The notes under the pieces are model-generated. The model had not been told where the DNA came from and did not search any database. It was given only the letters and a program-made list of their open reading frames with translations. 64,000 nt of DNA from a virus: the IMG/VR virus record IMGVR_UViG_3300028029_000006, positions 312,236 through 376,235 of that record; one strand, written 5' to 3'. The first letter of the stretch is position 1. Each line of letters opens with the position of its first letter. This document shows, piece by piece, positions 49,217-60,736 of the stretch. A program made the translations under genes and the position numbers.

Positions 49217-51379
49217 TCAATTGCCATTTTTATAAACTTTTTTAAGCAAATCAGTTGGATCTAATAGTTTCTTCGGTTTATTTTCCATTTTTTCCCATCT
49301 TAATCTGTCTTTTACTCCATGATCATAAAATTCAAAATGAAGCATAGTCATTGGGTTTCCTTTATACCTTTTCATAACTGTAACTACTTTAGCAATTACT
49401 TGGCCTTGTTTAATTTTATCTCCAGGTTCCACCAAAGGTTTAACCTCTCCGTAATTAATAACACCAGATTTCCCTTCAATTAAAATAGCCTGAGTATCAT
49501 TCCACCAACTTGTGCCAACTTTTGATCCAGTAAAATCCAGTACTGTAACTACAATACCATCTTCAATAGCAAGAACTTCAGTGTCAGGCTCGCAATATAA
49601 ATCTACTCCAGAATGAACGTATCCTCGTCTTTGATATCCAAAAGTTCCTGGTTCATTATTAACTGGAATTGGGTAATCTTTAGTTGCTAAAGGCCAAGCA
49701 AGCGATTTATCTTCACTACTATTATAGGCATCTTTCAAGATAAGCGCAACCTCTGGCCTGGTAAATTCTTCAGGAAGATCTTCTCCATTTTCAAGCATTT
49801 TTCTTACTTTAGTTCCACTTAAAAATAATTTTGTTTCAGATCCACCTGGAGCGGTTTTAACACTGCCCATTCCTTTCATCGTCTTTGAATAAAAAGTATG
49901 CTCAAAACATAAAGGAATAATCCCCAATTCTCCAGGAGAAAATTCATCAAAGATTTTTTGAGCATCATAAGTCCCATAATAATCACCTACTCCAGCATGA
50001 TCTCTGCCAACAATAAAATGACTACAACCATAATTTTTCCTACAAATTGCATGATGAATTGCTTCTCTAGGACCAGCATACCTCATTGCTGCAGGGAACA
50101 TTCCTAAAACAACGCTATTCTCTGAATAATAATTGTTAATTAAAGCTTCATAACAAGACATTCTAACATCTGCATCAACATCTCCAGCTTTAGTGGCTCC
50201 AACTAATGGGTGAATTAATAAACCATCACACATTTCTAGTGCACATTTTGTTAAATACTCATGTGCTCTATGCATTGGATTTCTTGTTTGAAAAGCTACA
50301 ATTCTTTTCCATCCTCGCTCTTCAAAAATCCATCGCGTTTCTTTTGGTGAAAAATCACCATTGTCTATATTAAAAATAGAAAAAACATTAACTTCACCAC
50401 CTAAGTAAACATCTCCTACTTTCATAACATAAGAAACTCCAGGATGTTCCATATCAGTTGTTTTGTAAACTTCTTGACATTCTAGCTCTTTATCAGGAGT
50501 AAATTTGTCAGACACAGTCATAGTACCAACAATATTACCACTTAAACCTATTAAGTTAATTAAACTTCTTAATTTGATTTTTCCAGCCTGCTCCTGACTA
50601 ACCGGCAAAACAATAGGTATAGCCCAAGGTAATCCGTTCTCCAAACGCATTTCTTTAACAACTTTTAGATAATCTTTTTCATTCATGAATCCGGTTAAAG
50701 GACTGTAGCCACCTTCGCCAATCATTCGTAAATCACAAGCCGTACGTTCATCTAATGTGACTTTAGTAAAACTAGAAGCAATCGCAAAAATACTTTCTCT
50801 ATTAACCAAAGTTCCTCCATGAGGAGCGATTAAGCCTTTTGTAGTGGTAGTATTTGTATTAATTAACCCTAATTCTTGAAGTTTATTTAAGATTTTATCT
50901 AAAGATTCTTCAGCAGTTTCTGTAAATGTATTTAATGTTATTTCTGGATTAATAGGTTTTTCATAAGGAGCGTCAATTCCAGTAAAACCTTTAATTTCTC
51001 CAGCTAAAGCTTTTTTGTATAAACCTTTTGGATCTCGTTTAATTAATTCGTCAAGTTGACAGTCGCAGTAAACTTCCACAAAGCTACTTACAAGTGCCCT
51101 CTGCGCGGCTCTGACGGCCTTGTAAGGGGAGATTGCAGCAGTGATGGCGCACCCTCCTGAGTTGGCCACTAAACTCGCTACAAAGCCAATGCGGTTGATA
51201 TTAATATCTCTATCTTCTTTTGAGAATCCAAGACCTTTTGATAGATTTTTTCTAACAACATCTCCATCTAGCACTTCTGTATGAATTCCTTGATGTTGTA
51301 ACTTTGCAGATAACATTGCTGCAAGAGTTGATTTTCCTGAACCACTTAAACCTGTAAACCAAATAACAAAACCACTCAT
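49217..51379 (-). CDS. sat: APS kinase - sulfate adenylyltransferase - M23 peptidase triple fusion
   Basis: [12 protein letters not shown] and RDPKGLY (CysC); [12 protein letters not shown] and VGRDHAG (Sat); HSGVD and LHFE (M23). Confidence 0.9.
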
Positions 51380-52892: not shown

Positions 52893-52923
52893 AAAAAAAA
52901 AGCTCATCAAAAAATGATAAGTT
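52893..52923 (-). terminator. Intrinsic terminator closing the RNA array
   Basis: AACTTATCA-TTTTT-TGATGAGCT followed by T8 on the - strand. Confidence 0.7.
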
Positions 52924-52933
52924 TTGAAAATTT

Positions 52934-53008
52934 AAAATATCTGAGTTAAATAATCATTTTAAAGTATATATCAAAATGCTTGTGTGATTATTTTTTTATA
53001 GATATTTT
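52934..53008 (-). ncRNA. Stand-alone ACAAGCA module RNA (element Z)
   Basis: AAAATATCT/AGATATTTT stem, ATAAAA/AACTC internal loop, AAATAATCA/TGATTATTT stem, CACAAGCA, small hairpin. Confidence 0.7.
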
Positions 53009-53155
53009 GGCGGAGAAACCAGGAATCGAACCTGATGCTTGTAAAAGTAATTTAATTGTTTCCTTTTGATATGATCTTTGGGATACGAGGCAGAACTTTG
53101 TTTAATATTTATCCAATTAATAGTTGGGTGCAGAACCATCCTGCTATATTTCTCC
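53008..53155 (-). ncRNA. tRNA-like RNA with the module in the variable arm, encoded CCA (element A)
   Basis: Acceptor GGAGAAA/TTTCTCC-G-CCA, D arm GCAGGA-TGG-TTCTGC, CCAA-CTATTAA-TTGG arm, ~80-nt insert ending TACAAGCA, T arm TCAGG-TTCGATT-CCTGG. Confidence 0.8.
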
Positions 53156-53161
53156 AGATTA

Positions 53162-53296
53162 AAGGCATTCGAGTTAAAAATATTGTTTTATGTAATAACA
53201 TACGGGAATTGAACCCGTTACTTTCAGCCTTTTAGGCGGACGCTCTACCAGATGAGCTAATGTTGCTTGTAAATATTTTAAAGGTTTGAATGCCTT
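53162..53296 (-). ncRNA. Complete tRNA-like cloverleaf enclosed by the module stem (element B)
   Basis: AAGGCATTC/GAATGCCTT and AAAATATT/AATATTTT stems flank GCAACAT-TA-GCTC..GAGC..CTAAAAG loop..ACGGG-TTCAATT-CCCGT-ATGTTAT. Confidence 0.8.
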
Positions 53297-53298
53297 AG

Positions 53299-53357
53299 AG
53301 CACTTGGAAAGGTTCGCACTTTCAATGCATGTTTGCATTATTCTAACAATCAAGTAT
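53299..53357 (-). ncRNA. Truncated tRNA-like element lacking a D arm
   Basis: TACTTG/CAAGTG stem, AATGCA-AACA-TGCATT hairpin, T-like arm GAAAG-TGCGAAC-CTTTC. Confidence 0.45.
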
Positions 53358-53380
53358 ATTTTAAGATTTATTAAATCTAG

Positions 53381-53453
53381 GAGCGCGAGCAAGATTTGCA
53401 CTTGCGACCTCTAGGTTATGAGCCTAGTGAGCTACTGACTGCTCCATCGCGCG
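53381..53453 (-). tRNA. tRNA-Met(CAT), initiator-like
   Basis: C1:T72 mismatch, GCGCGA/TCGCGC, TGGAGCAG..GTAGCTC, CTAGG-CTCATAA-CCTAG, GCAAG-TGCAAAT-CTTGC. Confidence 0.85.
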
Positions 53454-53454
53454 C

Positions 53455-53579
53455 GGTACCACAAAAAGGGCTTGAACCTTTGCCTCTCATAACTAAAAAG
53501 TTATAAGCGCTCTACCTGTTAACAATCTATTAGCCGGACTCATGCCGGTCAATTATTTGTTTGTCTGAGCTATTGTGAC
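53455..53579 (-). ncRNA. tRNA-Lys-like RNA with a 54-nt D loop and an extended anticodon stem
   Basis: GTCACAA/TTGTGGT-A-CC, GCTC/GAGC enclosing 53513-53566, CTTATAACT-TTTT-AGTTATGAG, AAAGG-TTCAAGC-CCTTT. Confidence 0.7.
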
Positions 53580-53586
53580 TTAAAAA

Positions 53587-53733
53587 AACTATTATTCGAG
53601 TATTAATATCTGTTTAAAAGATCATTTTAATATGATTGCCTATACCATTTTGGCTATTTGCCCACTAAGTAGGTAAAGCAGGATTCGAACCTGCAATTTT
53701 TGCTTGTAAGATATTAACTAATGAATATTAGTT
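53587..53733 (-). ncRNA. Circularly permuted tRNA-like RNA closed by the module, Y RNA/YrlA-like (element D)
   Basis: Order: stem, TACAAGCA, T arm GCAGG-TTCGAAT-CCTGC, acceptor hairpin TTTACCT-ACTTAGT-GGGCAAA, TA, D arm GCC..TGGTA..GGC, ATCAT/ATGAT arm, AAAC, stem with TACTC loop. Confidence 0.85.
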
Positions 53734-53734
53734 G

Positions 53735-53865
53735 TGGAGAATCCAGGAATCGAACCTGATTTGCTTGTAAACACTAATTATTTGCTCTTCAATAAAGAAC
53801 GAGTTTTAGAGTTGTTAAAATTCTTTTTCCAATAAAAGTTGAGGGCCACCCTCAATTAATTCCCC
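53735..53865 (-). ncRNA. tRNA-like RNA with the module in the variable arm (element E)
   Basis: GGGGAAT/ATTCTCC, D arm TTGAGGG-TGG-CCCTCAA, insert AACTCTAA-AACTC-GTTCTT..AAGAGC-AAATAA-TTAGTGTT-TACAAGCA, T arm identical to element A. Confidence 0.8.
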
Positions 53866-53875
53866 ATTCGGTTAT

Positions 53876-53903
53876 ACTATAACCATTTATGCCTAGTTGT
53901 CAA
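53876..53903 (-). promoter_or_regulatory. Sigma70-like promoter of the RNA array
   Basis: TTGACA-16 nt-TATAGT, ending 10 nt before the 5' G of element E. Confidence 0.8.
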
Positions 53904-53914
53904 GAAGTTTTTTT

Positions 53915-53974
53915 AAAAAAAGTGGCAACCAATTAAAAACAATAATCCCGTAATGAATAATTATTGGTTGCCAC
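53915..53974 (-). terminator. Intrinsic terminator of the Ro60/Ubl operon
   Basis: 12-bp stem GTGGCAACCAAT/ATTGGTTGCCAC followed by T7. Confidence 0.7.
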
Positions 53975-53993
53975 CTAAACCTATCACCACATG

Positions 53994-54587
53994 CTATGAT
54001 GAGCAAAAATCACAAGTTGTGCCAGACTTGTCCCATCCGCTTGAGTGTTCTTTGTAACCCCAAGAAAGACCATAACGATAACTTAATGAATTAACACAAC
54101 GTTCGCAAGAATTTGCGGCTATTAAAATAGCTTTACTCATTTCATAAGTTTTATTCCACCCATAACCTCGTAGTATAGATTTTATCCTTTCTTTAAATGA
54201 AGGGCGTACTAATGCTATAACCAAGTCTTGAGGCCATGATGAATTTCCACTCATTATTTTTTTTGAACCTTTAGATCTCCAATTATTGCTCCAAGATTCT
54301 TTAATGTTTTTTACTTGGGTTCCTTTACATTTCTTACACTCTCGGCCTTCTAAACCTTCCATCCAACCAAATGTTTGCTTAATATGTTCATCTAAATGGT
54401 CACAATTTTCAACTTCATCTTTTTGAACATTTTTAAAATAATTCCTATTAAGTGTAGTAGGAGATTCGCTTACTAGATAAACGTATCCATCAGGCTCAAT
54501 ATCTGAAAAGCTATTTAACGGAACCCATTTATCTCCATTGGAGTTTTCATACCATATCGAGTGTAATTTGCTTTCATCTATAATCAT
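53994..54587 (-). CDS. Hypothetical zinc-binding protein
   Basis: CKKC, CERC, CDFC. Confidence 0.5.
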   Translation of the reverse strand: MIIDESKLHSIWYENSNGDKWVPLNSFSDIEPDGYVYLVSESPTTLNRNYFKNVQKDEVENCDHLDEHIKQTFGWMEGLEGRECKKCKGTQVKNIKESWSNNWRSKGSKKIMSGNSSWPQDLVIALVRPSFKERIKSILRGYGWNKTYEMSKAILIAANSCERCVNSLSYRYGLSWGYKEHSSGWDKSGTTCDFCSS

Positions 54588-54645
54588 AATTAACCTCTGA
54601 CTTTCTTAACTTCCACATCTACTATAACACCTTGGTTGAGAAATA

Positions 54646-55218
54646 TCAAACCTTTATTGCACCAGCCGGGCTGATTTGGTAGTTAACCATGCGATTATTA
54701 ACAATAAATTCATGTACAGATTGTGCAAAAAAAGATGAAACAATTGCAATAAATGCCAAGTGTTCTCCATTTTCACAGGTTGCGGCACCAGCGGATGGTT
54801 CATGATCAATTTTAAAATGTTGATCCCACATTATTTGTCCAAACTCTCCATTGGCAGCTAAACCTCCATGTAGACAAGGGACATTATTTTGACGAACATA
54901 ATTTTGAACTAGGAGCCGAGCTTCGGCATTATCTAAACAATCAATAATAAGATCTGATTTTTTTAAAAGCATATCTACATTATCACTAGTAAGTTTATGA
55001 GGTATAATATTTAATTTAGTACCAAACATAAATTTCATACTTTGTTGCATTGATTGCACTTTAGATTTTCCAACAGTTTTAACGCTGTGAAATTGGGACA
55101 TAGTATTCGTTTTTTCTACTCTGTCAAAATCAATTATTGTTATATTAATTTCTTCATTTCTAATAAACTGAATAAGATGAGAGCCTAAAGCTCCAACTCC
55201 TACAATTGTTACATTCAT
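54646..55218 (-). CDS. ThiF/E1-like adenylating enzyme
   Basis: IVGVGALGS, IDFDRVE..N..SQ, K, DCLDN...R, single candidate catalytic Cys in ATCE. Confidence 0.92.
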   Translation of the reverse strand: MNVTIVGVGALGSHLIQFIRNEEINITIIDFDRVEKTNTMSQFHSVKTVGKSKVQSMQQSMKFMFGTKLNIIPHKLTSDNVDMLLKKSDLIIDCLDNAEARLLVQNYVRQNNVPCLHGGLAANGEFGQIMWDQHFKIDHEPSAGAATCENGEHLAFIAIVSSFFAQSVHEFIVNNRMVNYQISPAGAIKV

Positions 55219-55243
55219 AATTGAATTTCTTTAATGATTTCGG

Positions 55244-55513
55244 TTACTTGCCGAAGGGCACTTTCGGTCTTAAGCTTATACGATTCATTTGTACATCTTC
55301 AGTTGAAGGAAATCTATCTACTACAAAGTCATTAAAGTCTGCAACTGAATCTGTTGTAATTCCTGGCACATCGCCATTATTAACTGCTTCGGTTGCCCAA
55401 GATTTAATTTCTTCATCTGAAGAGTCAAAATGAACTGGTTGAAGTAAAGTTCCGTTTAATCCTGCAAAAGTAATATTTAAAACTGCTTCTGTTGCTGCTA
55501 ATTCTTCTGTCAT
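55244..55513 (-). CDS. Ubiquitin-like (beta-grasp) protein
   Basis: 89 aa, beta-beta-alpha-beta pattern, C-terminus LRPKVPFG-K, directly upstream of the E1 gene. Confidence 0.7.
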   Translation of the reverse strand: MTEELAATEAVLNITFAGLNGTLLQPVHFDSSDEEIKSWATEAVNNGDVPGITTDSVADFNDFVVDRFPSTEDVQMNRISLRPKVPFGK

Positions 55514-55537
55514 TGTATTTATCCTTTAAAATAATAT

Positions 55538-56001
55538 TTAGGTCATTTGTTTTTTAAATTCTTTTCTGAATTGCTTTGATAGTTTTTGGACCCTATATAT
55601 CCAATACCAATCTACTTTATCTTTAAACTCTCTAATGAAATTTTCAGATAATATTTGATCTATAGATAACACAGTCCAATATAATCTATCTTGAAATTTT
55701 CTAATGAAATCTTCTGATAATTTTTGATTAAAAGATATATTATCCCAATATACTTTATTTTGAAATTCTTTAATGAATTCTTCTGATAATTTTTGGTGAT
55801 AAGATATAGTATCCCAATCTAATTCATTTTTAAACTCTCTAATAAAATCTTCTGATAATTTTTCATATTTAGATATAGTAACCCAGCATATTTTATATTT
55901 GAATTCTTCTCTTAACTTATTTTTTAATTTACCTTTTTTTGTAAACTTCATTTCTGAACAATTATATTCAGAAGCTATTTCTTTTAATTGTTTTTTTTCA
56001 T
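55538..56001 (-). CDS. 23-aa Trp-repeat protein (leader frameshifted in an A8 run)
   Basis: Family leader from ATG 56001; about five repeats. Confidence 0.7.
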
Positions 56002-56004
56002 AAT

Positions 56005-56376
56005 TTAATAATTTGATATTTTACGTAATTCATCAAACCAGTCTGGTTTTTCGGAGACTACATGGTATATGTAATCATATTTTCCTGGTCCTAAGAACCT
56101 TGTGATGATCATATTATCACCACTAATGATGGGCCAGTCAAGCTTTTTTCCTAGTCCAATTTCAACTGCTGAGAATGTTGTAACATCTGTCCAAGAAGGA
56201 GAAGGTATTCCTAAGCCCGGATGGCTATGAGCAAAGCCCGAAATGTTATCTCGATGTTCCCAGATTACGTTCCATAAATCTAAACTATCAGGTAACTCTG
56301 ATATTGATCGATTATGAGGTGTATGAAAATAAAGAGGTTTTCCCTCTAAATCTAATAAAATTCCTGCTTCCATCAT
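56005..56376 (-). CDS. JAB/MPN+ metallo-isopeptidase
   Basis: N-terminal E (MEAG) and HSHP...PSWTD (HxH-x7-S-x2-D). Confidence 0.9.
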   Translation of the reverse strand: MMEAGILLDLEGKPLYFHTPHNRSISELPDSLDLWNVIWEHRDNISGFAHSHPGLGIPSPSWTDVTTFSAVEIGLGKKLDWPIISGDNMIITRFLGPGKYDYIYHVVSEKPDWFDELRKISNY

Positions 56377-56652
56377 GTTTATTTACCTTACCACTCAGAT
56401 GAAGCTAACCAGCCACGACCTTCGCTTTTAACCCAATTTCCAACTGTTTTGTTAATATCTTGATTGGTTTCTTCGTTGCCAATATTTATCATTGTACTAT
56501 TTAATATTAATTCACAATCAATATTTGGAATATCTTCTTCAAGACGTTCCCCTTCATGTTCTTCTAAAACTTTCCACGCATCAATTTTGCTTTTTGCAAT
56601 AACTAATTCTGAATTATATAGCCTAAACATATTTAATTTTTCTTTGTTCATA

Positions 56653-57588
56653 TTAACCTCTTCTATATATAACTAAAACGTCTTTATCAATCGCTTCTTT
56701 AATAACTCCAGGGATACTTTCTAATGTTAACCAAGTATCACCTTTGGTTCCTACTTCAAAATCATTATCATAATCATGTTCTTGTAAACATACTCCAGAA
56801 TCTATAATTCTTAAAGTTGTAGAATGACAAACGCATTCCAATCGTATGTTATTAAATTTATATTTAACAATCATTTCTTGATTTCGAATTCCTTTCCTAT
56901 GATCTAAATAAACAGCTCCTCCAAGGGAAAGAGCAGCGACTGCTGCTTGTCTAAAATCAGTAACGGCTATTTGTCTTCTAATCAATCCAGTACCAAAAGA
57001 ATCTCTCATTTGCTTTTGAAGTGCTTCTTGTCGAATTTTTTCTTCTTGAGCTTTTCTTTGATTTTCTATTTTTATTCTTATATAATTTTCAAATTTAAAA
57101 GCTATATCTAAAGCCGGTGTTACTTCTGAAATATCATCAACATTATCTTTTTGATCTAAAAATGAATTTAAAACCTCATCTTCTGGTCCCAATGGGAATT
57201 CTTCTCCAACAAAAATTAAGGGGCCATTTTCATAAATTCTACCCACTTTTATTCTTGAAAATCTTTCTATGCCAGGTTGAATTAAATAAACGAATTCAAA
57301 ATTAGATGACATTTCTTCAATAGAGAATTTTGTTTGAGTGTCATCTGTTACTAATCTACCACCAACTAAATACCCAGTAATATATTCATAGAATATTTCT
57401 TCATTTGAATCTGATTCAGATTTTAAATTAGCAATTCTGTTTTTAACATAAAAAGTATACCAACCATGTTCTGAAGGTAAAGTTCCTTTAATTTTCCAAG
57501 TGCGATTTTTGGTTTGAAGAGATCTTCCACCTACCCAAGGGATAGATAATAATTCTTCTTTTATTTGCAAATGATCTTGCCAACCCAT
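56653..57588 (-). CDS. Probable E2-like conjugating protein (C-terminal domain)
   Basis: H-x8-GVCL followed by W-LTLESI, resembling E2 H-x-N...GxICL...W...TL; operon context. Confidence 0.5.
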   Translation of the reverse strand: MGWQDHLQIKEELLSIPWVGGRSLQTKNRTWKIKGTLPSEHGWYTFYVKNRIANLKSESDSNEEIFYEYITGYLVGGRLVTDDTQTKFSIEEMSSNFEFVYLIQPGIERFSRIKVGRIYENGPLIFVGEEFPLGPEDEVLNSFLDQKDNVDDISEVTPALDIAFKFENYIRIKIENQRKAQEEKIRQEALQKQMRDSFGTGLIRRQIAVTDFRQAAVAALSLGGAVYLDHRKGIRNQEMIVKYKFNNIRLECVCHSTTLRIIDSGVCLQEHDYDNDFEVGTKGDTWLTLESIPGVIKEAIDKDVLVIYRRG

Positions 57589-57589
57589 T

Positions 57590-58087
57590 TTAATCCTTTA
57601 ATATTCCTTTATGTTTGAACTCTTCAATGAAATCGTTTGATAAATTTTGATATATAGATATATATTTCCATCTTATTTTATCTTGAAATTCTTTAATAAA
57701 ATCTTCTGATAATGTTTGAGAACAAGACACCCATCCCCAATCTAATTTATCTTGAAATTCTCTTATAAAATCTTCAGATAAATTCTGATAAATAGATATA
57801 TTAAACCAATCTACTTTATCTTTGAATTCCCTAATGAAATTTTCAGATATTTTTTGATAAAAAGATATTTCATACCAATCTACTTTATCTTGAAACTCTC
57901 TAATAAATTCCTCAGATAAAATTGATCTACTAGATATGTCATACCAAATTAATTCATATTGAAACTCCCTAATAAAATCTTCAGATAAATCTATCTTCTT
58001 AGAAAGGTGCTCCCAATTTATTATTTCAGAATGTTTTTTAAAACAAATTTTATCTTCTTTAGTAAACATTTTAATCTTCTTTTTCAT
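57590..58087 (-). CDS. 23-aa Trp-repeat protein
   Basis: About six LSEDFIREFQDK.DW repeats. Confidence 0.8.
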   Translation of the reverse strand: MKKKIKMFTKEDKICFKKHSEIINWEHLSKKIDLSEDFIREFQYELIWYDISSRSILSEEFIREFQDKVDWYEISFYQKISENFIREFKDKVDWFNISIYQNLSEDFIREFQDKLDWGWVSCSQTLSEDFIKEFQDKIRWKYISIYQNLSNDFIEEFKHKGILKD

Positions 58088-58382
58088 TGAATTCTTTATG
58101 AAAATCGGTGGGTAATTTTTGATATCTCTGCACCCAATACCACACCATTTTATCTTGAAACTCTCTTATGAAATTTTCTGATAACGTTTGGTTTAAAGAT
58201 ATATTGTGCCAATGTACTTTATCTTGAAATTCTCTAATAAAATTTTCTGATAACGTTTGATATTCAGATATTTCATTCCACCAAACGTTATCTTTGAATT
58301 CTCTTATAAAATCTTCTGGTAATTCTTGAAGAGATAGGCGTTTCCAATCAATTACGTTTTTAAATTCTTTAAAAAAACCCAT
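58071..58382 (-). CDS. 23-aa Trp-repeat protein (5' end probably frameshifted)
   Basis: About four repeats; homopolymer-rich upstream region. Confidence 0.7.
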   Translation of the reverse strand: MGFFKEFKNVIDWKRLSLQELPEDFIREFKDNVWWNEISEYQTLSENFIREFQDKVHWHNISLNQTLSENFIREFQDKMVWYWVQRYQKLPTDFHKEFNEKED

Positions 58383-58812
58383 TTTTCTTTTGATGAAAAA
58401 TCAAATTTTTCTGGTTTATAAATTTTCATATTATTAACTTTTAATTTTTACGTATTTCTTTCTTAAACTTAATTCAATTTTAGATATTTTACCCCTGCCT
58501 ATTTTTTTATTTGTTTAGATTTAGCTATTTCAATAGCGTTAATGATTAATTCTTTTGGCGTGTCACTCATCTTTTTTTAATTCATGATATTCGTAGTCTT
58601 CTACACATACAACAAGCCATTTTTTAACTAAACAAGCTACATCATCATTATTTAACTCATCAATAGCTTTAAGAACTTCTTTTGTGCTTATTTTATTTGA
58701 TTTAACATCACCCCAAAAATTCCAAGTGTAATGCGTATCAGATTTTTCTCCTCTACTTAAAAGAGAACCAATAGCGTCAAATAAGTCTTTCTTTTCAAGA
58801 AGAGGATTCAAT

Positions 58813-60687
58813 TTATGCCACCCACATTGGACGTTCCAATAATTCAGTCTTCATAATCAATTCAGCCAAAGAAACTCTCTTCTGAACAACTCTACCAATA
58901 GCTTCACGATTAACTGGAGTTGATTGAATTAATGCAGACAATGTTCTTGGAAGCTGATAAACGTCTCCAAAAATATTTTCATCAATCATAAAACAAGGAA
59001 TCCCTAAATTAGTAGCAGTATTTTGTACCGCAAACCTATTATAACCCCAACCTCCGTCAACCTTCAAAAAACCGAAAGCAACAGGATTTAAACCAGATTT
59101 ATTAACCGCTCCTTGAAAATCAGCAGCACCCTCATCTCCAATAAAGATAAAAAGAACATCTTCATCTACACTTGGCTTATTATGTTGTAGAGCCCGAACA
59201 CCACTTCCATAATCTGTACCACCTCCAGCACTGTAATTACTAAAAGCTTGACGAACTCCAACACCAGTTGAGCTTCTTAATTTAACTTCCTGACCCATAG
59301 TATTGAAGACAGAAATGTGAATTTTATCCATAGGAAACGCTTGTAAAAACTTTTCCAAATAAACTTTAGCTTGCTCAATTGCACCTTGCATAGAACCAGA
59401 GATATCAACCATAAAGTAAATTCTGATATTATCCATCTCCTTTTCAACAGCCGCCTTAACAGCCGTATCAGCAGCTTCTTGAAGTTTATCCTTCGTGCTT
59501 TGATTTTTAACACGGGAAGCAATGTTAGCAGCCCTTGTGTCAGTTGCAGTTTTCATTGCAGCTTCCCAGCGATTTTTAACTTCAGGATCTTGCAAAAGAC
59601 CTAACTCTTCCAATGTCGGAGTTAGAATAATTAAATCCTTATCTGAAAGGCAATGAGCCTCAATTGAAGCTGCAACAATTGCTCGTGTCAACCCAACACT
59701 AGCTGGAACCATACCAACAATGCGCTTATAACTCAGAGGATTCTTAACAATTCGCTCACAAATTTCAGCTTCAGAAAGACCTTCCCATGTCTCAGCTGTT
59801 GCTACAGCCTTACCAATAGCTATTTCACGTCTACCATCTTTGGCTTGAGCCTGCTTCCACCGCAAAGTTTCGAAGTATTTTGGACTAGAAGGCTTGTAAC
59901 CAACTCGTCTTGATAGTTCCATCACAGTTTTGCGAAAACCAGCTTTAACCAAACCATTTAAAAGCTTAGAATTATCTTCACGATAACGAATCCACTTTTC
60001 AACCGCTTTGTGCCAACGACCATAAAATGGCTTGCGAGCAGACCGCCCAAATCCAAGATCGCGATTAATTTCAGCAATCTCAGGAAGAGAAAGTAAATCA
60101 TGAATTCGAAGAAGAAGTTTAGGGTTTAGATCTTTCTTATCTTTACGATCAACAGTTAGAATCATGGCTTCGCCAACATCACGAAAATCATCATCAAAGA
60201 AAACAACTTCTCCATTTTCTTTAATCGGAATTCCTTTGCGATTTTGAACAAGCATCAAAGCTGCCAAAACAACTTTAAGATCTCGATGGTCTTGTGTAAA
60301 AGCGTAGGATGCCCAGCGGGCCGAAAATTCATTATTCATTTTCCAAACGTCAGCAGCTTGCTTATACATCCACGCTGCGACCTCAGGATACAATCCGGGT
60401 TTACGATATTCACCAACTTTTCGCGCACCATCTTGAACGGAATTATCATCTTGCAATTCTCCCATTCTAGTTTGGTGAACTTTTCGCCCAATTTTATTAA
60501 GACTATAAACAATTTTCTTGCCATCTTCTTCTTTATGAGTAACCGGAATCCACTTAACTCCAATTGGGCTGGTAGCATCTGGAATAACTACACCACACCT
60601 TCCATGATAAAGATGGTCTGTGTAAGATAATAGCATATTGATGGTCCGTTCTGCAGGACCGAGTGTTTCTGTTGTTGTATTGGGCAT
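58813..60687 (-). CDS. Divergent Ro60/TROVE-like protein with C-terminal vWA domain
   Basis: Helical N-domain with RWHKAVEKW, MELSRRVGYKP and ETWEGLS (Ro60-like); vWA MIDAS VDISGSM, GGTD, FIGDE. Confidence 0.72.
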   Translation of the reverse strand: MPNTTTETLGPAERTINMLLSYTDHLYHGRCGVVIPDATSPIGVKWIPVTHKEEDGKKIVYSLNKIGRKVHQTRMGELQDDNSVQDGARKVGEYRKPGLYPEVAAWMYKQAADVWKMNNEFSARWASYAFTQDHRDLKVVLAALMLVQNRKGIPIKENGEVVFFDDDFRDVGEAMILTVDRKDKKDLNPKLLLRIHDLLSLPEIAEINRDLGFGRSARKPFYGRWHKAVEKWIRYREDNSKLLNGLVKAGFRKTVMELSRRVGYKPSSPKYFETLRWKQAQAKDGRREIAIGKAVATAETWEGLSEAEICERIVKNPLSYKRIVGMVPASVGLTRAIVAASIEAHCLSDKDLIILTPTLEELGLLQDPEVKNRWEAAMKTATDTRAANIASRVKNQSTKDKLQEAADTAVKAAVEKEMDNIRIYFMVDISGSMQGAIEQAKVYLEKFLQAFPMDKIHISVFNTMGQEVKLRSSTGVGVRQAFSNYSAGGGTDYGSGVRALQHNKPSVDEDVLFIFIGDEGAADFQGAVNKSGLNPVAFGFLKVDGGWGYNRFAVQNTATNLGIPCFMIDENIFGDVYQLPRTLSALIQSTPVNREAIGRVVQKRVSLAELIMKTELLERPMWVA

Positions 60688-60708
60688 AATTTTCTCCTTT
60701 GTTTGCTT

Positions 60709-60736
60709 AATATAACACCTCTAGGCGTGGCGTCAA
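60709..60736 (-). promoter_or_regulatory. Sigma70-like promoter of the Ro60/Ubl operon
   Basis: TTGACG-16 nt-TATATT with TGn extension; RBS AAAGGAG before ATG 60687. Confidence 0.75.

What the first reader, a model, noticed from the sequence alone, without database searches (positions are those of the whole stretch)
52893..60736. Candidate new system: Ro60/TROVE-vWA protein plus ubiquitin-like conjugation operon plus an array of tRNA-mimic RNAs
Seen: a promoter at 60736 precedes, with no strand switch, a TROVE-like/vWA protein, a probable E2, a JAB protease, a Ubl and an E1, ending at a terminator near 53915. A second promoter 12 nt further on drives about eight tRNA or tRNA-like RNAs, five sharing a new structured module. 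Established: bacterial Ro60 (Rsr) genes lie next to their Y RNAs, which mimic tRNA and are linked to RNA repair/decay; E1-E2-Ubl-JAB sets conjugate Ubls to proteins; vWA domains can act as Ubl receptors or targets. Inference: a phage-encoded ribonucleoprotein in which the Ro-like ring binds the module, displays different tRNA surfaces and is coupled to Ubl tagging, for example as a decoy or trap for host anticodon nucleases and other tRNA-binding defence enzymes. I do not know this combination as a described system.
Basis: partly seen in the sequence, partly recalled or inferred. Interest (0 to 1): 0.96.

Follow-up and report, generated by a model that had tools for sequence, protein, structure and literature searches.

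The report
Ro60-like RNA particle with ubiquitin-like cassette
A 409-kb phage, its relatives and many myxobacteria share a gene set that joins a Ro60-shaped RNA-binding protein and a new family of tRNA-shaped RNAs to a small ubiquitin-like protein with its activating and trimming enzymes; I found no paper describing this link.

Summary
On the minus strand, a promoter (60736-60709) is followed by five conserved genes. They are a 624-aa Ro60-fold/vWA protein, a 311-aa cysteine protein, a JAB peptidase, an 89-aa protein ending in an invariant glycine, and a 190-aa ThiF-type E1. Six non-conserved ORFs lie among them. A strong terminator follows, then a second promoter and a roughly 970-nt RNA array.

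The same five genes occur in the same order in about 60 huge-phage loci and about 25 bacterial loci, mostly Myxococcota.

The array holds two members of a new RNA family. This is a tRNA-shaped RNA that carries a roughly 55-nt two-stem module and an invariant YACAHGC in the variable-arm position. More than 100 copies elsewhere show strong covariation.

These RNAs flank the gene set even in bacterial loci that have no tRNA genes. In one phage they follow a divergent Ro60-like gene that lacks the ubiquitin-like genes.

The E2 assignment is unproven. Ro60 likeness is at the fold level only. The decoy function is untested. I found no published description.

This scan has flagged the same system before on other DNA, in at least 33 genomes.

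The parts
60709..60736 (-). sigma-70-like promoter ahead of the operon
   Evidence: TTGACG-16-TATATT with extended TG, 10 of 12 matches. This is a consensus match only.
58813..60687 (-). Ro60-like protein, 624 aa. It has an N-terminal beta insert, a helical-repeat region of about 300 aa and a C-terminal vWA domain with a MIDAS motif.
56653..57588 (-). Conserved 311-aa protein of unknown family. It has N-terminal beta-barrels, a long helix and a C-terminal alpha/beta domain with invariant C252 and G265-x-C267-L268. It is an E2-like candidate only.
   Evidence: AF2 pLDDT 87. No PDB match. No Pfam family in 56 members or in 120 listed homologues. Invariant residues. It always lies directly after the Ro60-like gene.
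56005..56376 (-). JAB/JAMM metallopeptidase, 123 aa
   Evidence: Prok-JAB E 1.8e-4, below the Pfam cut-off. E3, H50, H52, S61 and D64 are at least 95% conserved in 56 sequences. Where this gene is absent, the Ubl always ends exactly at Gly.
55244..55513 (-). Ubiquitin-like protein candidate, 89 aa, ending ...RPK(T/V)PFG plus one residue
   Evidence: G88 is invariant and is followed by 0-55 variable residues. A fusion to a ThiF domain exists (P0128). The Atlas model's structural neighbours include beta-grasp families (FERM_N/RA, PB1, DUF348) at TM 0.5-0.59.
54646..55218 (-). Minimal E1-like adenylating enzyme (ThiF family), 190 aa
   Evidence: Pfam ThiF E 1.3e-25. GxGxxG, DxD, DCxDN, R101 and C148 are conserved.
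53915..53975 (-). intrinsic terminator of the protein operon
   Evidence: Hairpin with 12-bp outer arms plus U7, -21.3 kcal/mol.
53876..53903 (-). promoter of the RNA array
   Evidence: TTGACA-16-TATAGT, 11 of 12 matches, the best in the region.
53732..53865 (-). RNA family member 1. Elements: acceptor, H1 53854-53840, H2 53837-53823, stem1 53813-53807/53776-53770, stem2 53800-53784, UACAAGCA, T-arm 53759-53743, acceptor 3' strand.
   Evidence: 94.9 bits to model R1. Helix coordinates.
53655..53734 (-). Short unit: hairpin, UUACAAGCA, T-arm, small hairpin. It has no 5' acceptor strand.
   Evidence: Sequence and fold. Weak YrlA match at 53638-53696, 17.9 bits against a cut-off of 69. The same kind of short unit follows the first full unit in L046 and L028.
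53456..53582 (-). tRNA-like RNA with an insertion of about 47 nt in the D-loop and an 8-9-bp 'anticodon' stem
   Evidence: Read from the sequence and from the MFE fold. Not called by ARAGORN or Rfam. Its conservation was not examined.
53380..53453 (-). canonical tRNA-Met (CAU)
   Evidence: ARAGORN, and Rfam at 56.9 bits.
53192..53272 (-). UUACAA leader followed by a tRNA-like RNA with loop CUAAAAG. ARAGORN calls it 'Phe AAA'. The acceptor stem has a mismatch.
   Evidence: The same arrangement (YACAHGC immediately before a tRNA body whose acceptor starts with GC) occurs 22 times in 21 sequences, the window plus 20 related loci, mostly downstream of E1.
53008..53155 (-). RNA family member 2. Elements: H1 53144-53130, H2 53127-53113, stem1 53099-53093/53050-53044, stem2 53086-53058, UACAAGCA, T-arm 53035-53019, acceptor, GCCA.
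   Evidence: 88.1 bits to R1. Coordinates.
52895..52988 (-). Orphan CACACAAGCA motif (52977-52988) and a terminator-like hairpin plus U-run that ends the array

Best explanation
This is one conserved system with three parts.

1. A Ro60-shaped ring protein: helical repeats plus a vWA domain with a MIDAS site.

2. A dedicated family of RNAs of about 130-145 nt encoded next to it. They keep a tRNA's acceptor end, its elbow (T-loop plus a D-arm analogue with an invariant GG) and an anticodon-like arm. In the variable-arm position they carry a two-stem module with a conserved internal loop, followed by an invariant single-stranded YACAHGC.

3. A minimal ubiquitin-like pathway.

Inferred mechanism:
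- The Ro60-like protein binds the RNAs, most likely through the module and the YACAHGC handle, as Ro60 binds Y RNAs. The tRNA-shaped part is left free to engage tRNA-binding factors.
- JAB trims the small protein to expose its terminal Gly, and the E1 adenylates it.
- The small protein is then passed, possibly through the invariant Cys267 of the 311-aa protein, to a protein in the particle or recruited by it.

Shown here: the conservation of the genes, their order, the RNA structure, the genetic linkage and the JAB/tail correlation.

Inferred only: RNA binding, conjugation and the target.
For: Gene order:
- The five genes have the same order in about 60 of 68 IMG/VR huge-phage loci.
- The order recurs in about 25 of 32 bacterial loci, with JAB missing in seven of these and placed after the Ubl gene in one; the other loci are cut off by contig ends or show only the Ro60-like gene.

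Ro60-like fold:
- PDB top 13 hits are all Ro60, E 2e-8 to 7e-6, about 540 aligned columns, TM up to 0.53. vWA-only hits begin at E 1.7e-5.
- BFVD top hits include 'Ro-like RNA binding protein' and 'TROVE domain-containing protein'.
- The MIDAS residues are invariant.

RNA family:
- 24 of 25 pairs show compensatory changes.
- In 145 distinct sequences, 92.5% of cells are paired, against 57% when shuffled and 36-48% when slid.

Linkage of the RNAs to the genes:
- The only two members in the 409-kb genome lie in this array.
- In 5 of 6 whole genomes all members lie within about 10 kb of the genes.
- At least 12 bacterial loci have no tRNA gene yet carry the RNAs directly upstream of the Ro60-like gene or downstream of E1.
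- Records found through the RNA alone carry the protein in 7 of 13 cases. That includes both records that are at least 90% complete; the misses are fragments.
- In a 157-kb phage a 28%-identical homologue without Ubl genes is followed 200 nt later by one such RNA.

Ubl pathway:
- The terminal Gly is invariant and the tails after it vary.
- All 7 JAB-less loci encode a protein that ends exactly at that Gly, against 5 of 17 JAB-containing bacterial loci and 8 of 54 phage loci.
- A Ubl-ThiF fusion exists.
- The JAMM and E1 catalytic residues are conserved.
Against: - No TROVE sequence signal in 37 homologues at E up to 10, nor by profile against PDB sequences. TM-scores are moderate, and in the VIA re-alignment Ro60 did not reach the top 50, all of which were vWA domains.
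- The 311-aa protein matches no E2 and no other solved fold.
- The small protein has no Pfam or PDB sequence match. Its beta-grasp fold rests on Atlas neighbours at TM 0.5-0.59.
- One genome keeps six of its seven RNAs 238 kb from the genes.
- 11 of 32 bacterial loci and one phage group (L016, L017, L043) show no RNA hit at the thresholds used.
- No experiment shows binding or conjugation.
Confidence: 0.55

Rival explanations
1. The RNAs are working tRNAs, processed, given CCA and charged, that happen to carry a giant variable arm. The proteins are their maturation or modification factors. The small Gly-terminated protein would act as a sulfur carrier (thiocarboxylate) activated by the E1, as in Urm1/Uba4, TtuB/TtuC or MoaD/MoeB, rather than as a protein tag.
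For: - The RNAs keep a 7-bp acceptor, N73, C74, an elbow and a 7-nt anticodon-like loop in 110 of 145 copies. Position 37 is a purine in 95%, and 38 different triplets occur.
- In phages the system sits inside tRNA arrays.
- The E1 is minimal and has an invariant Cys148.
- No E2 could be shown.
- JAB trimming of sulfur-carrier precursors is established for CysO and QbsE (my knowledge).
Against: - U33, which is universal in decoding tRNAs, is present in only 59% of the loops.
- No PP-loop or other thiolation enzyme is in the conserved set.
- The system exists in bacteria away from any tRNA genes.
- The terminus is FG rather than GG.
- A Ro60-fold protein has no known role in tRNA modification.
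Confidence: 0.15
2. The particle is a phage counter-defence decoy or trap. It displays many tRNA look-alikes to host anticodon nucleases or other tRNA-binding defence enzymes, which are then captured and tagged with the Ubl.
For: - Phages carry 3-7 copies with different anticodon-like loops.
- 41% of the loops lack U33, which lies next to the usual cleavage sites of anticodon nucleases (the cleavage sites are from my knowledge).
- Phage tRNAs are known to counter tRNA-targeting defence (my knowledge).
Against: - The same five genes and RNAs lie in chromosomal, non-phage neighbourhoods of Myxococcota. The neighbours are a Ser/Thr kinase, YcaO, an M49 peptidase and a PPIase. The core function is therefore not phage-specific.
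- No nuclease target is identified and nothing was tested.
Confidence: 0.12
3. The genes and the RNAs are neighbours without a shared function. The protein cassette acts on proteins only, and the RNAs are decayed or rearranged tRNA genes that accumulate in the tRNA region.
For: - In phages both lie in the tRNA region.
- The window's array also holds irregular tRNA-like pieces.
- One genome has most of its RNAs far from the genes.
Against: - Strong covariation and invariant motifs across more than 140 distinct copies argue against decay.
- The RNAs remain adjacent to the genes in bacterial loci that have no tRNA genes.
- An RNA directly follows a divergent homologue in a 157-kb phage.
Confidence: 0.05

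Closest known systems
Bacterial and phage Ro60 (Rsr) with Y RNAs: Rsr with YrlA/YrlB (PMC4201824) and Thermus phage phiLo phiRo60 with Yrl1/Yrl2 (PMC12135203; PDB 9KOP, 9L5Y)
   Same: - A ring-shaped helical-repeat plus vWA/MIDAS protein.
- It is encoded next to small structured RNAs that contain tRNA-like elements (T-arm, D-arm analogue).
- It also occurs in phages.
- 9KOP and 9L5Y are the best structural matches.
   Different: - No TROVE sequence signature, and an extra beta insert at residues 32-95.
- The RNAs do not reach the YrlA model's cut-off: 17.9 against 69 bits.
- The RNAs have another topology: an open acceptor end with N73 and C74, a retained anticodon-like arm, and the extra module in the variable-arm position.
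- No known Ro60 locus carries a Ubl, E1 and JAB cassette, in any paper I could search.
Prokaryotic Ubl systems with E1 and JAB: archaeal SAMP/UbaA/HvJAMM1, Thermus TtuB/TtuC, CysO/Mec+, and the bacterial Bil/Bub and CBASS Cap2/Cap3 pathways (PMC11601596 and my knowledge)
   Same: - A ThiF-type E1.
- A JAMM peptidase.
- A small protein with a C-terminal Gly that is exposed by trimming.
   Different: - The E1 is only 190 aa.
- There is no recognisable UBC-fold E2 or E3.
- The terminus is ...PFG.
- The cassette is always coupled to a Ro60-like protein, a 311-aa Cys protein and tRNA-shaped RNAs.
Class II tRNAs (long variable arm) and tmRNA tRNA-like domains
   Same: - Acceptor stem, T-arm and elbow contact.
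- The extra structure emerges between the anticodon stem and the T stem.
- Some copies carry G3:U70.
   Different: - The variable-arm insert is about 55-75 nt, with a conserved two-stem module and the invariant YACAHGC.
- U33 is often missing.
- The D-arm is replaced by a 4-7-bp hairpin with a short loop.
- The window's two copies are not recognised by ARAGORN or by the Rfam tRNA model.

Membership tests
Ro60 / TROVE (Pfam PF05731) | Match to the TROVE sequence model | tested here: not met
   None of 37 homologues hits PF05731, even at E up to 10. A profile against PDB sequences finds only vWA proteins. Two 24-28%-identical relatives give no bridge either.
Ro60 / TROVE (Pfam PF05731) | Overall fold: helical-repeat ring closed by a C-terminal vWA domain | tested here: met
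   Foldseek PDB ranks 1-13 are all Ro60 chains, with about 510-580 aligned columns, probability 1.00 and TM by target 0.32-0.53. BFVD gives Ro-like and TROVE phage proteins over 540-606 columns. The N-domain was not folded alone, and the VIA list shows only the vWA domain.
Ro60 / TROVE (Pfam PF05731) | MIDAS motif in the vWA domain | tested here: met
   D428-x-S430-x-S432, T491 and D518 are invariant in 37 sequences.
Ro60 / TROVE (Pfam PF05731) | Binds Y RNA or misfolded RNA | not testable with these tools
   Only genetic linkage to the RNAs is shown.
Y RNA-like YrlA (Rfam RF02553) | Score at or above the family's gathering cut-off (69 bits) | tested here: not met
   The best hit in the window and in the whole genome is 17.9 bits, on the short unit at 53638-53696. 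Nine related loci give only tRNA hits.
tRNA (Rfam RF00005 / ARAGORN) | Recognised as a tRNA with a standard cloverleaf | tested here: not met
   The two full members (53732-53865, 53008-53155) are not called by ARAGORN or by Rfam at gathering. U33 is present in only 59% of family members.
Prokaryotic Ubl conjugation or sulfur-carrier cassette | E1-like adenylating enzyme (ThiF fold with ATP-binding and Mg-binding residues) | tested here: met
   PF00899 at E 1.3e-25, 90 bits against a cut-off of 28. GxGxxG, DxD and DCxDN are conserved.
Prokaryotic Ubl conjugation or sulfur-carrier cassette | JAMM peptidase with E...HxH...S..D | tested here: met
   All five residues are at least 95% conserved. 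The Pfam Prok-JAB score of 21.8 is below the cut-off of 25.
Prokaryotic Ubl conjugation or sulfur-carrier cassette | Small beta-grasp protein with a C-terminal Gly | tested here: inconclusive
   The terminal Gly is invariant, and tails occur only where JAB is present. The fold was seen only through Atlas neighbours (FERM_N/RA, PB1, DUF348) at TM 0.5-0.59. No Pfam or PDB sequence hit.
Prokaryotic Ubl conjugation or sulfur-carrier cassette | E2 (UBC fold with a catalytic Cys) | tested here: inconclusive

The most novel reading that the evidence does not exclude
The system is an RNA-guided protein-tagging machine. The tRNA-shaped RNAs, held by the Ro60-like ring, select tRNA-binding proteins or the ribosome, and the Ubl cascade then marks them. 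A further possibility is that the E1, acting like an aminoacyl-tRNA synthetase, loads the Ubl's Gly carboxylate onto the 3' end of these RNAs. Either would be a mode of ubiquitin-like chemistry that is directed by RNA or carried on RNA, and neither has been described.
Probability: 0.15. Interest if true: 0.95.

Novelty: new variant of a known kind. Interest (0 to 1): 0.82.

Why it matters
Ro60 with its Y RNAs is an RNA-surveillance particle. Ubiquitin-like tagging is a protein-fate system. No known locus joins the two.

Here they are joined in a gene set that is:
- highly conserved (55-73% identity for the ring protein between phages and bacteria);
- widespread (about 2,000 homologues at E <= 0.001);
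- accompanied by an RNA family that is absent from Rfam.

If the link is functional, it would show how cells and giant viruses couple the state of tRNA-like RNAs to protein modification.

It would also give a tractable bacterial model for Ro60 biology. At least one cultured myxobacterium, Paraliomyxa miuraensis, carries the genes.

It would explain, too, why many huge phages place this cassette in the middle of their tRNA arrays.

Tried and rejected
Searches that found nothing useful:
- Sequence routes from the 624-aa protein to TROVE all failed: Pfam on 37 members, a profile against PDB sequences, and two distant homologues.
- The VIA second look showed only the vWA domain.
- For the 311-aa protein, Foldseek PDB, VIA-wide, ESM Atlas, Pfam on 56 members and a 5.8-billion-protein search gave no named relative.
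- Rfam with permissive thresholds on the array gave only two tRNAs, a weak YrlA hit and chance hits such as CRISPR-DR25.
- The metagenome scan found no close relative of the window (at most 65% identity), so the irregular elements of this particular array could not be compared.

Readings I dropped:
- I first took TTACAAGCA for the anticodon loop and stem of tRNA-Val(UAC). That is what it is in ordinary tRNA genes. In the arrays, however, it lies 0-4 nt before the T-stem and is invariant across copies with unrelated stems.
- I considered promoter, ribozyme and permuted-tRNA readings of the motif. There is no -10 box at the right spacing, no Rfam ribozyme hit, and the 5' acceptor strand lies at a constant 128-148 nt upstream.

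Not confirmed:
That search found fusions to ThiF, RyR and other domains only.

Full report
**What is in the window**

The window is bases 312236-376235 of a 409,147-bp virus record that is 96% complete by CheckV. Its GC content is about 31%.

In the finding's span every gene lies on the minus strand. In order, the region holds:
- a promoter-like site at 60736-60709;
- a 624-aa ORF (58813-60687; Pfam VWA_2 only);
- a 311-aa ORF (56653-57588; no family);
- a 123-aa JAB-like ORF (56005-56376);
- an 89-aa ORF (55244-55513);
- a 190-aa ThiF-family ORF (54646-55218; E 1.3e-25).

Six other ORFs are interspersed. Three of them are phrog_3532 'tryptophan-repeat' paralogues, which also occur in Bacillus phage G and Listeria phage LPJP1.

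A hairpin of -21 kcal/mol with a U7 tail ends the operon at about 53975-53915. The best promoter match of the region (53903-53876, 11 of 12) follows at once. It heads an untranslated stretch of about 970 nt that ends in a second terminator-like hairpin near 52900.

**The five genes are a conserved set**

The 624-aa protein has about 2,000 homologues at E <= 0.001. Most are 55-73% identical, and many lie on contigs of 200-600 kb.

In 68 IMG/VR loci fetched through this protein, tblastn finds the 311-aa protein, JAB, the 89-aa protein and the E1 in 56-63 loci. They are always in the same order and on the same strand. The loci that lack them are cut off by contig ends. The six other window ORFs are found in at most one locus each.

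Only one GenBank phage record has the protein: Virus Rctr197k, where it is annotated as a conserved hypothetical protein.

A scan of one genome per prokaryotic species gave 32 loci. Nearly all are Myxococcota MAGs, plus the isolate Paraliomyxa miuraensis SMH-27-4. They carry the same genes in the same compact order (JAB follows the Ubl gene in L218). Their neighbours are ordinary cellular genes: a Ser/Thr kinase with TPR repeats, YcaO, an M49 peptidase and a PPIase.

**The large protein**

An AlphaFold2 model (mean pLDDT 80) shows three parts:
- a beta-rich insert at residues 32-95;
- about 18 short helices from 101 to 417;
- a vWA domain from 421 to 590.

Foldseek against the PDB ranks thirteen Ro60 chains first. 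They include Thermus phage phiLo 9KOP and 9L5Y, human 9NEN and 9NEP, Xenopus 1YVP and Deinococcus 2NVO. The values are E 2e-8 to 7e-6, about 510-580 aligned columns and TM by target up to 0.53. Matches to vWA domains alone start at E 1.7e-5.

BFVD gives the same picture. Its top hits include 'Ro-like RNA binding protein' of Gordonia phage VanLee and 'TROVE domain-containing protein' entries.

The MIDAS residues are invariant.

**The ubiquitin-like cassette**

*E1.* It keeps GxGxxG, DxD, DCxDN and an invariant Cys148.

*JAB.* It keeps E3, H50, H52, S61 and D64.

*The 89-aa family.* It ends in an invariant ...RPK(T)PFG, followed by 0 to about 55 unrelated residues.
- Seven bacterial loci lack JAB. 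In all seven the protein stops exactly at that Gly.
- Among JAB-containing loci, 5 of 17 bacterial and 8 of 54 phage proteins stop there.
- This is the pattern expected if JAB exposes the Gly.
- One homologue is fused to a ThiF domain (P0128).
- The Atlas model's structural neighbours include beta-grasp families at TM 0.5-0.59.
- Sequence searches find no Ubl family.

*The 311-aa protein.* Its model has pLDDT 87.
- A long helix follows, then a C-terminal alpha/beta domain with invariant C252 and G265-x-C267-L268.
- No search names it.
- The E2 reading remains a guess, based on a remembered likeness to the UBC active-site motif.

**The RNAs**

ARAGORN and Rfam call only tRNA-Met (53380-53453) and an odd 'tRNA-Phe(AAA)' (53192-53267) in the array.

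The exact word TTACAAGCA occurs four times in the window, and all four copies lie in the array. In ordinary tRNA-Val(UAC) genes this word is U33 to A41. In distant relatives, however, the stretch just downstream of E1 shows the same grammar as the window: YACAHGC, then 0-4 nt, a T-arm, a 7-nt strand, N and C.

I collected units whose 5' strand pairs with that 7-nt strand 128-148 nt upstream and aligned 40 of them. RNAalifold gave five helices, and 24 of 25 pairs have compensatory changes.

A covariance model (R1) finds 214 matches in 65 sources, about 130 of them above 50 bits. On 145 distinct sequences 92.5% of cells pair. The figure is 57% after shuffling and 36-48% when the partners are slid.

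The architecture, from 5' to 3', is:
- a 7-bp acceptor stem (5' strand);
- H1, a D-arm analogue with an invariant GG;
- H2, an anticodon-arm analogue;
- a linker;
- stem1, then an internal loop ending in CUCG, then stem2, which often carries a GNRA loop;
- the invariant YACAHGC;
- the T-arm;
- the acceptor 3' strand, N73 and C74. CCA is fully encoded in 28% of copies.

H2 carries a 7-nt loop in 110 of 145 copies. In those loops U33 is present in 59%, position 37 is a purine in 95%, and 38 different triplets occur.

The window has two full members, at 53732-53865 and 53008-53155 (94.9 and 88.1 bits). They are the only ones in the 409-kb genome.

The array also holds:
- a short unit (hairpin, motif, T-arm, hairpin) that recurs after the first full unit in L046 and L028;
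- a tRNA-like RNA with a D-loop insertion;
- the 'AAA' element. This belongs to a recurrent type in which YACAHGC directly precedes a tRNA body whose acceptor starts with GC.

**Are the RNAs tied to the genes?**

In phages both lie in the tRNA region, which could explain the adjacency. Three results argue against that.
1. In at least twelve bacterial loci without any tRNA gene, R1 members lie within a few hundred bases upstream of the Ro60-like gene or just downstream of E1.
2. Whole-genome scans place all members within about 10 kb of the genes in five of six genomes. The exception keeps six of its seven members 238 kb away.
3. I also started from the RNA alone (pattern scan plus R1). Of 13 new records, 7 carry the protein, including both records that are at least 90% complete; the others are fragments of 5-31%.

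In one of those records, a 157-kb phage, a 28%-identical 487-aa homologue with no Ubl genes nearby is followed 200 nt later by a family RNA. This points to the ring protein and the RNA as the core pair.

**Comparison with what is known**

The closest published systems are Rsr with YrlA (PMC4201824) and phiLo phiRo60 with Yrl1/Yrl2 (PMC12135203). A survey of jumbo phages notes ROT/TROVE proteins in a few phages and mentions no Ubl link (PMC7824862).

Full-text searches for the combination found nothing. I could not read Burroughs and Aravind 2016 on RNA repair systems.

**Earlier notes of this scan**

Notes from this scan describe the same system on other DNA in at least 33 genomes, including myxobacteria. 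I tested the bacterial occurrence myself and it holds. I did not confirm the reported Ubl-Ro60 fusions.

**Verdict**

This is a real, conserved and apparently undescribed coupling of three things: a Ro60-like RNA particle, a new tRNA-shaped RNA family and a minimal ubiquitin-like pathway. RNA binding, conjugation and the biological role remain inferences.

Noticed in passing
window 49217-51379 (-): A 720-aa fusion of APS kinase, a PUA-like domain, ATP sulfurylase and an M23 peptidase domain (a PAPS-synthase-like enzyme) lies just downstream of the RNA array. It is not conserved in the related loci.
   Followed up: partly
window 58071-58382, 57590-58087, 55538-55951 (-): Three paralogues of the phrog_3532 'tryptophan-repeat' family have been inserted between the conserved operon genes. 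Their closest DNA matches are in Bacillus phage G, Listeria phage LPJP1 and Bacillus phage BpSp.
   Followed up: partly
G000:C1:250663-250734 (outside the window): ARAGORN calls a tRNA with anticodon CUA, a possible amber suppressor, among the 21 tRNAs of this genome. The window's genes read through normally under table 11.
   Followed up: no
G003 (record of L014) 99210-100456: A second cluster of six family RNAs lies 238 kb from the five-gene set in this 436-kb phage. It is the only genome of six in which the RNAs are not all near the genes.
   Followed up: no
L204 4729-6192 and 6394-6539 (G015, 157-kb phage): A divergent 487-aa homologue of the ring protein (28% identity, no Pfam hit) has no JAB, Ubl or E1 nearby. 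A family RNA follows it 200 nt downstream.
   Followed up: partly
L207, L209, L210, L212, L222, L234, L236 (bacterial loci): A four-gene variant lacks JAB. In every case the Ubl gene ends exactly at the invariant glycine.
   Followed up: yes
P0127, P0133, P0135, P0137-P0139, P0128: Longer forms of the Ubl carry real domains after the glycine: RyR PF02026, PF24043, PF26760, and in one case ThiF. This recalls ubiquitin fusion precursors.
   Followed up: no
window 53994-54587 (-): A 197-aa Cys-rich ORF with several CxxC pairs lies between E1 and the terminator. It has no family and no counterpart in the related loci.
   Followed up: partly
window 53456-53582 (-): A tRNA-like RNA has an insertion of about 47 nt in the D-loop, itself a hairpin, and an extended 8-9-bp anticodon stem with a 4-6-nt loop. 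Neither tRNA finder calls it.
   Followed up: no
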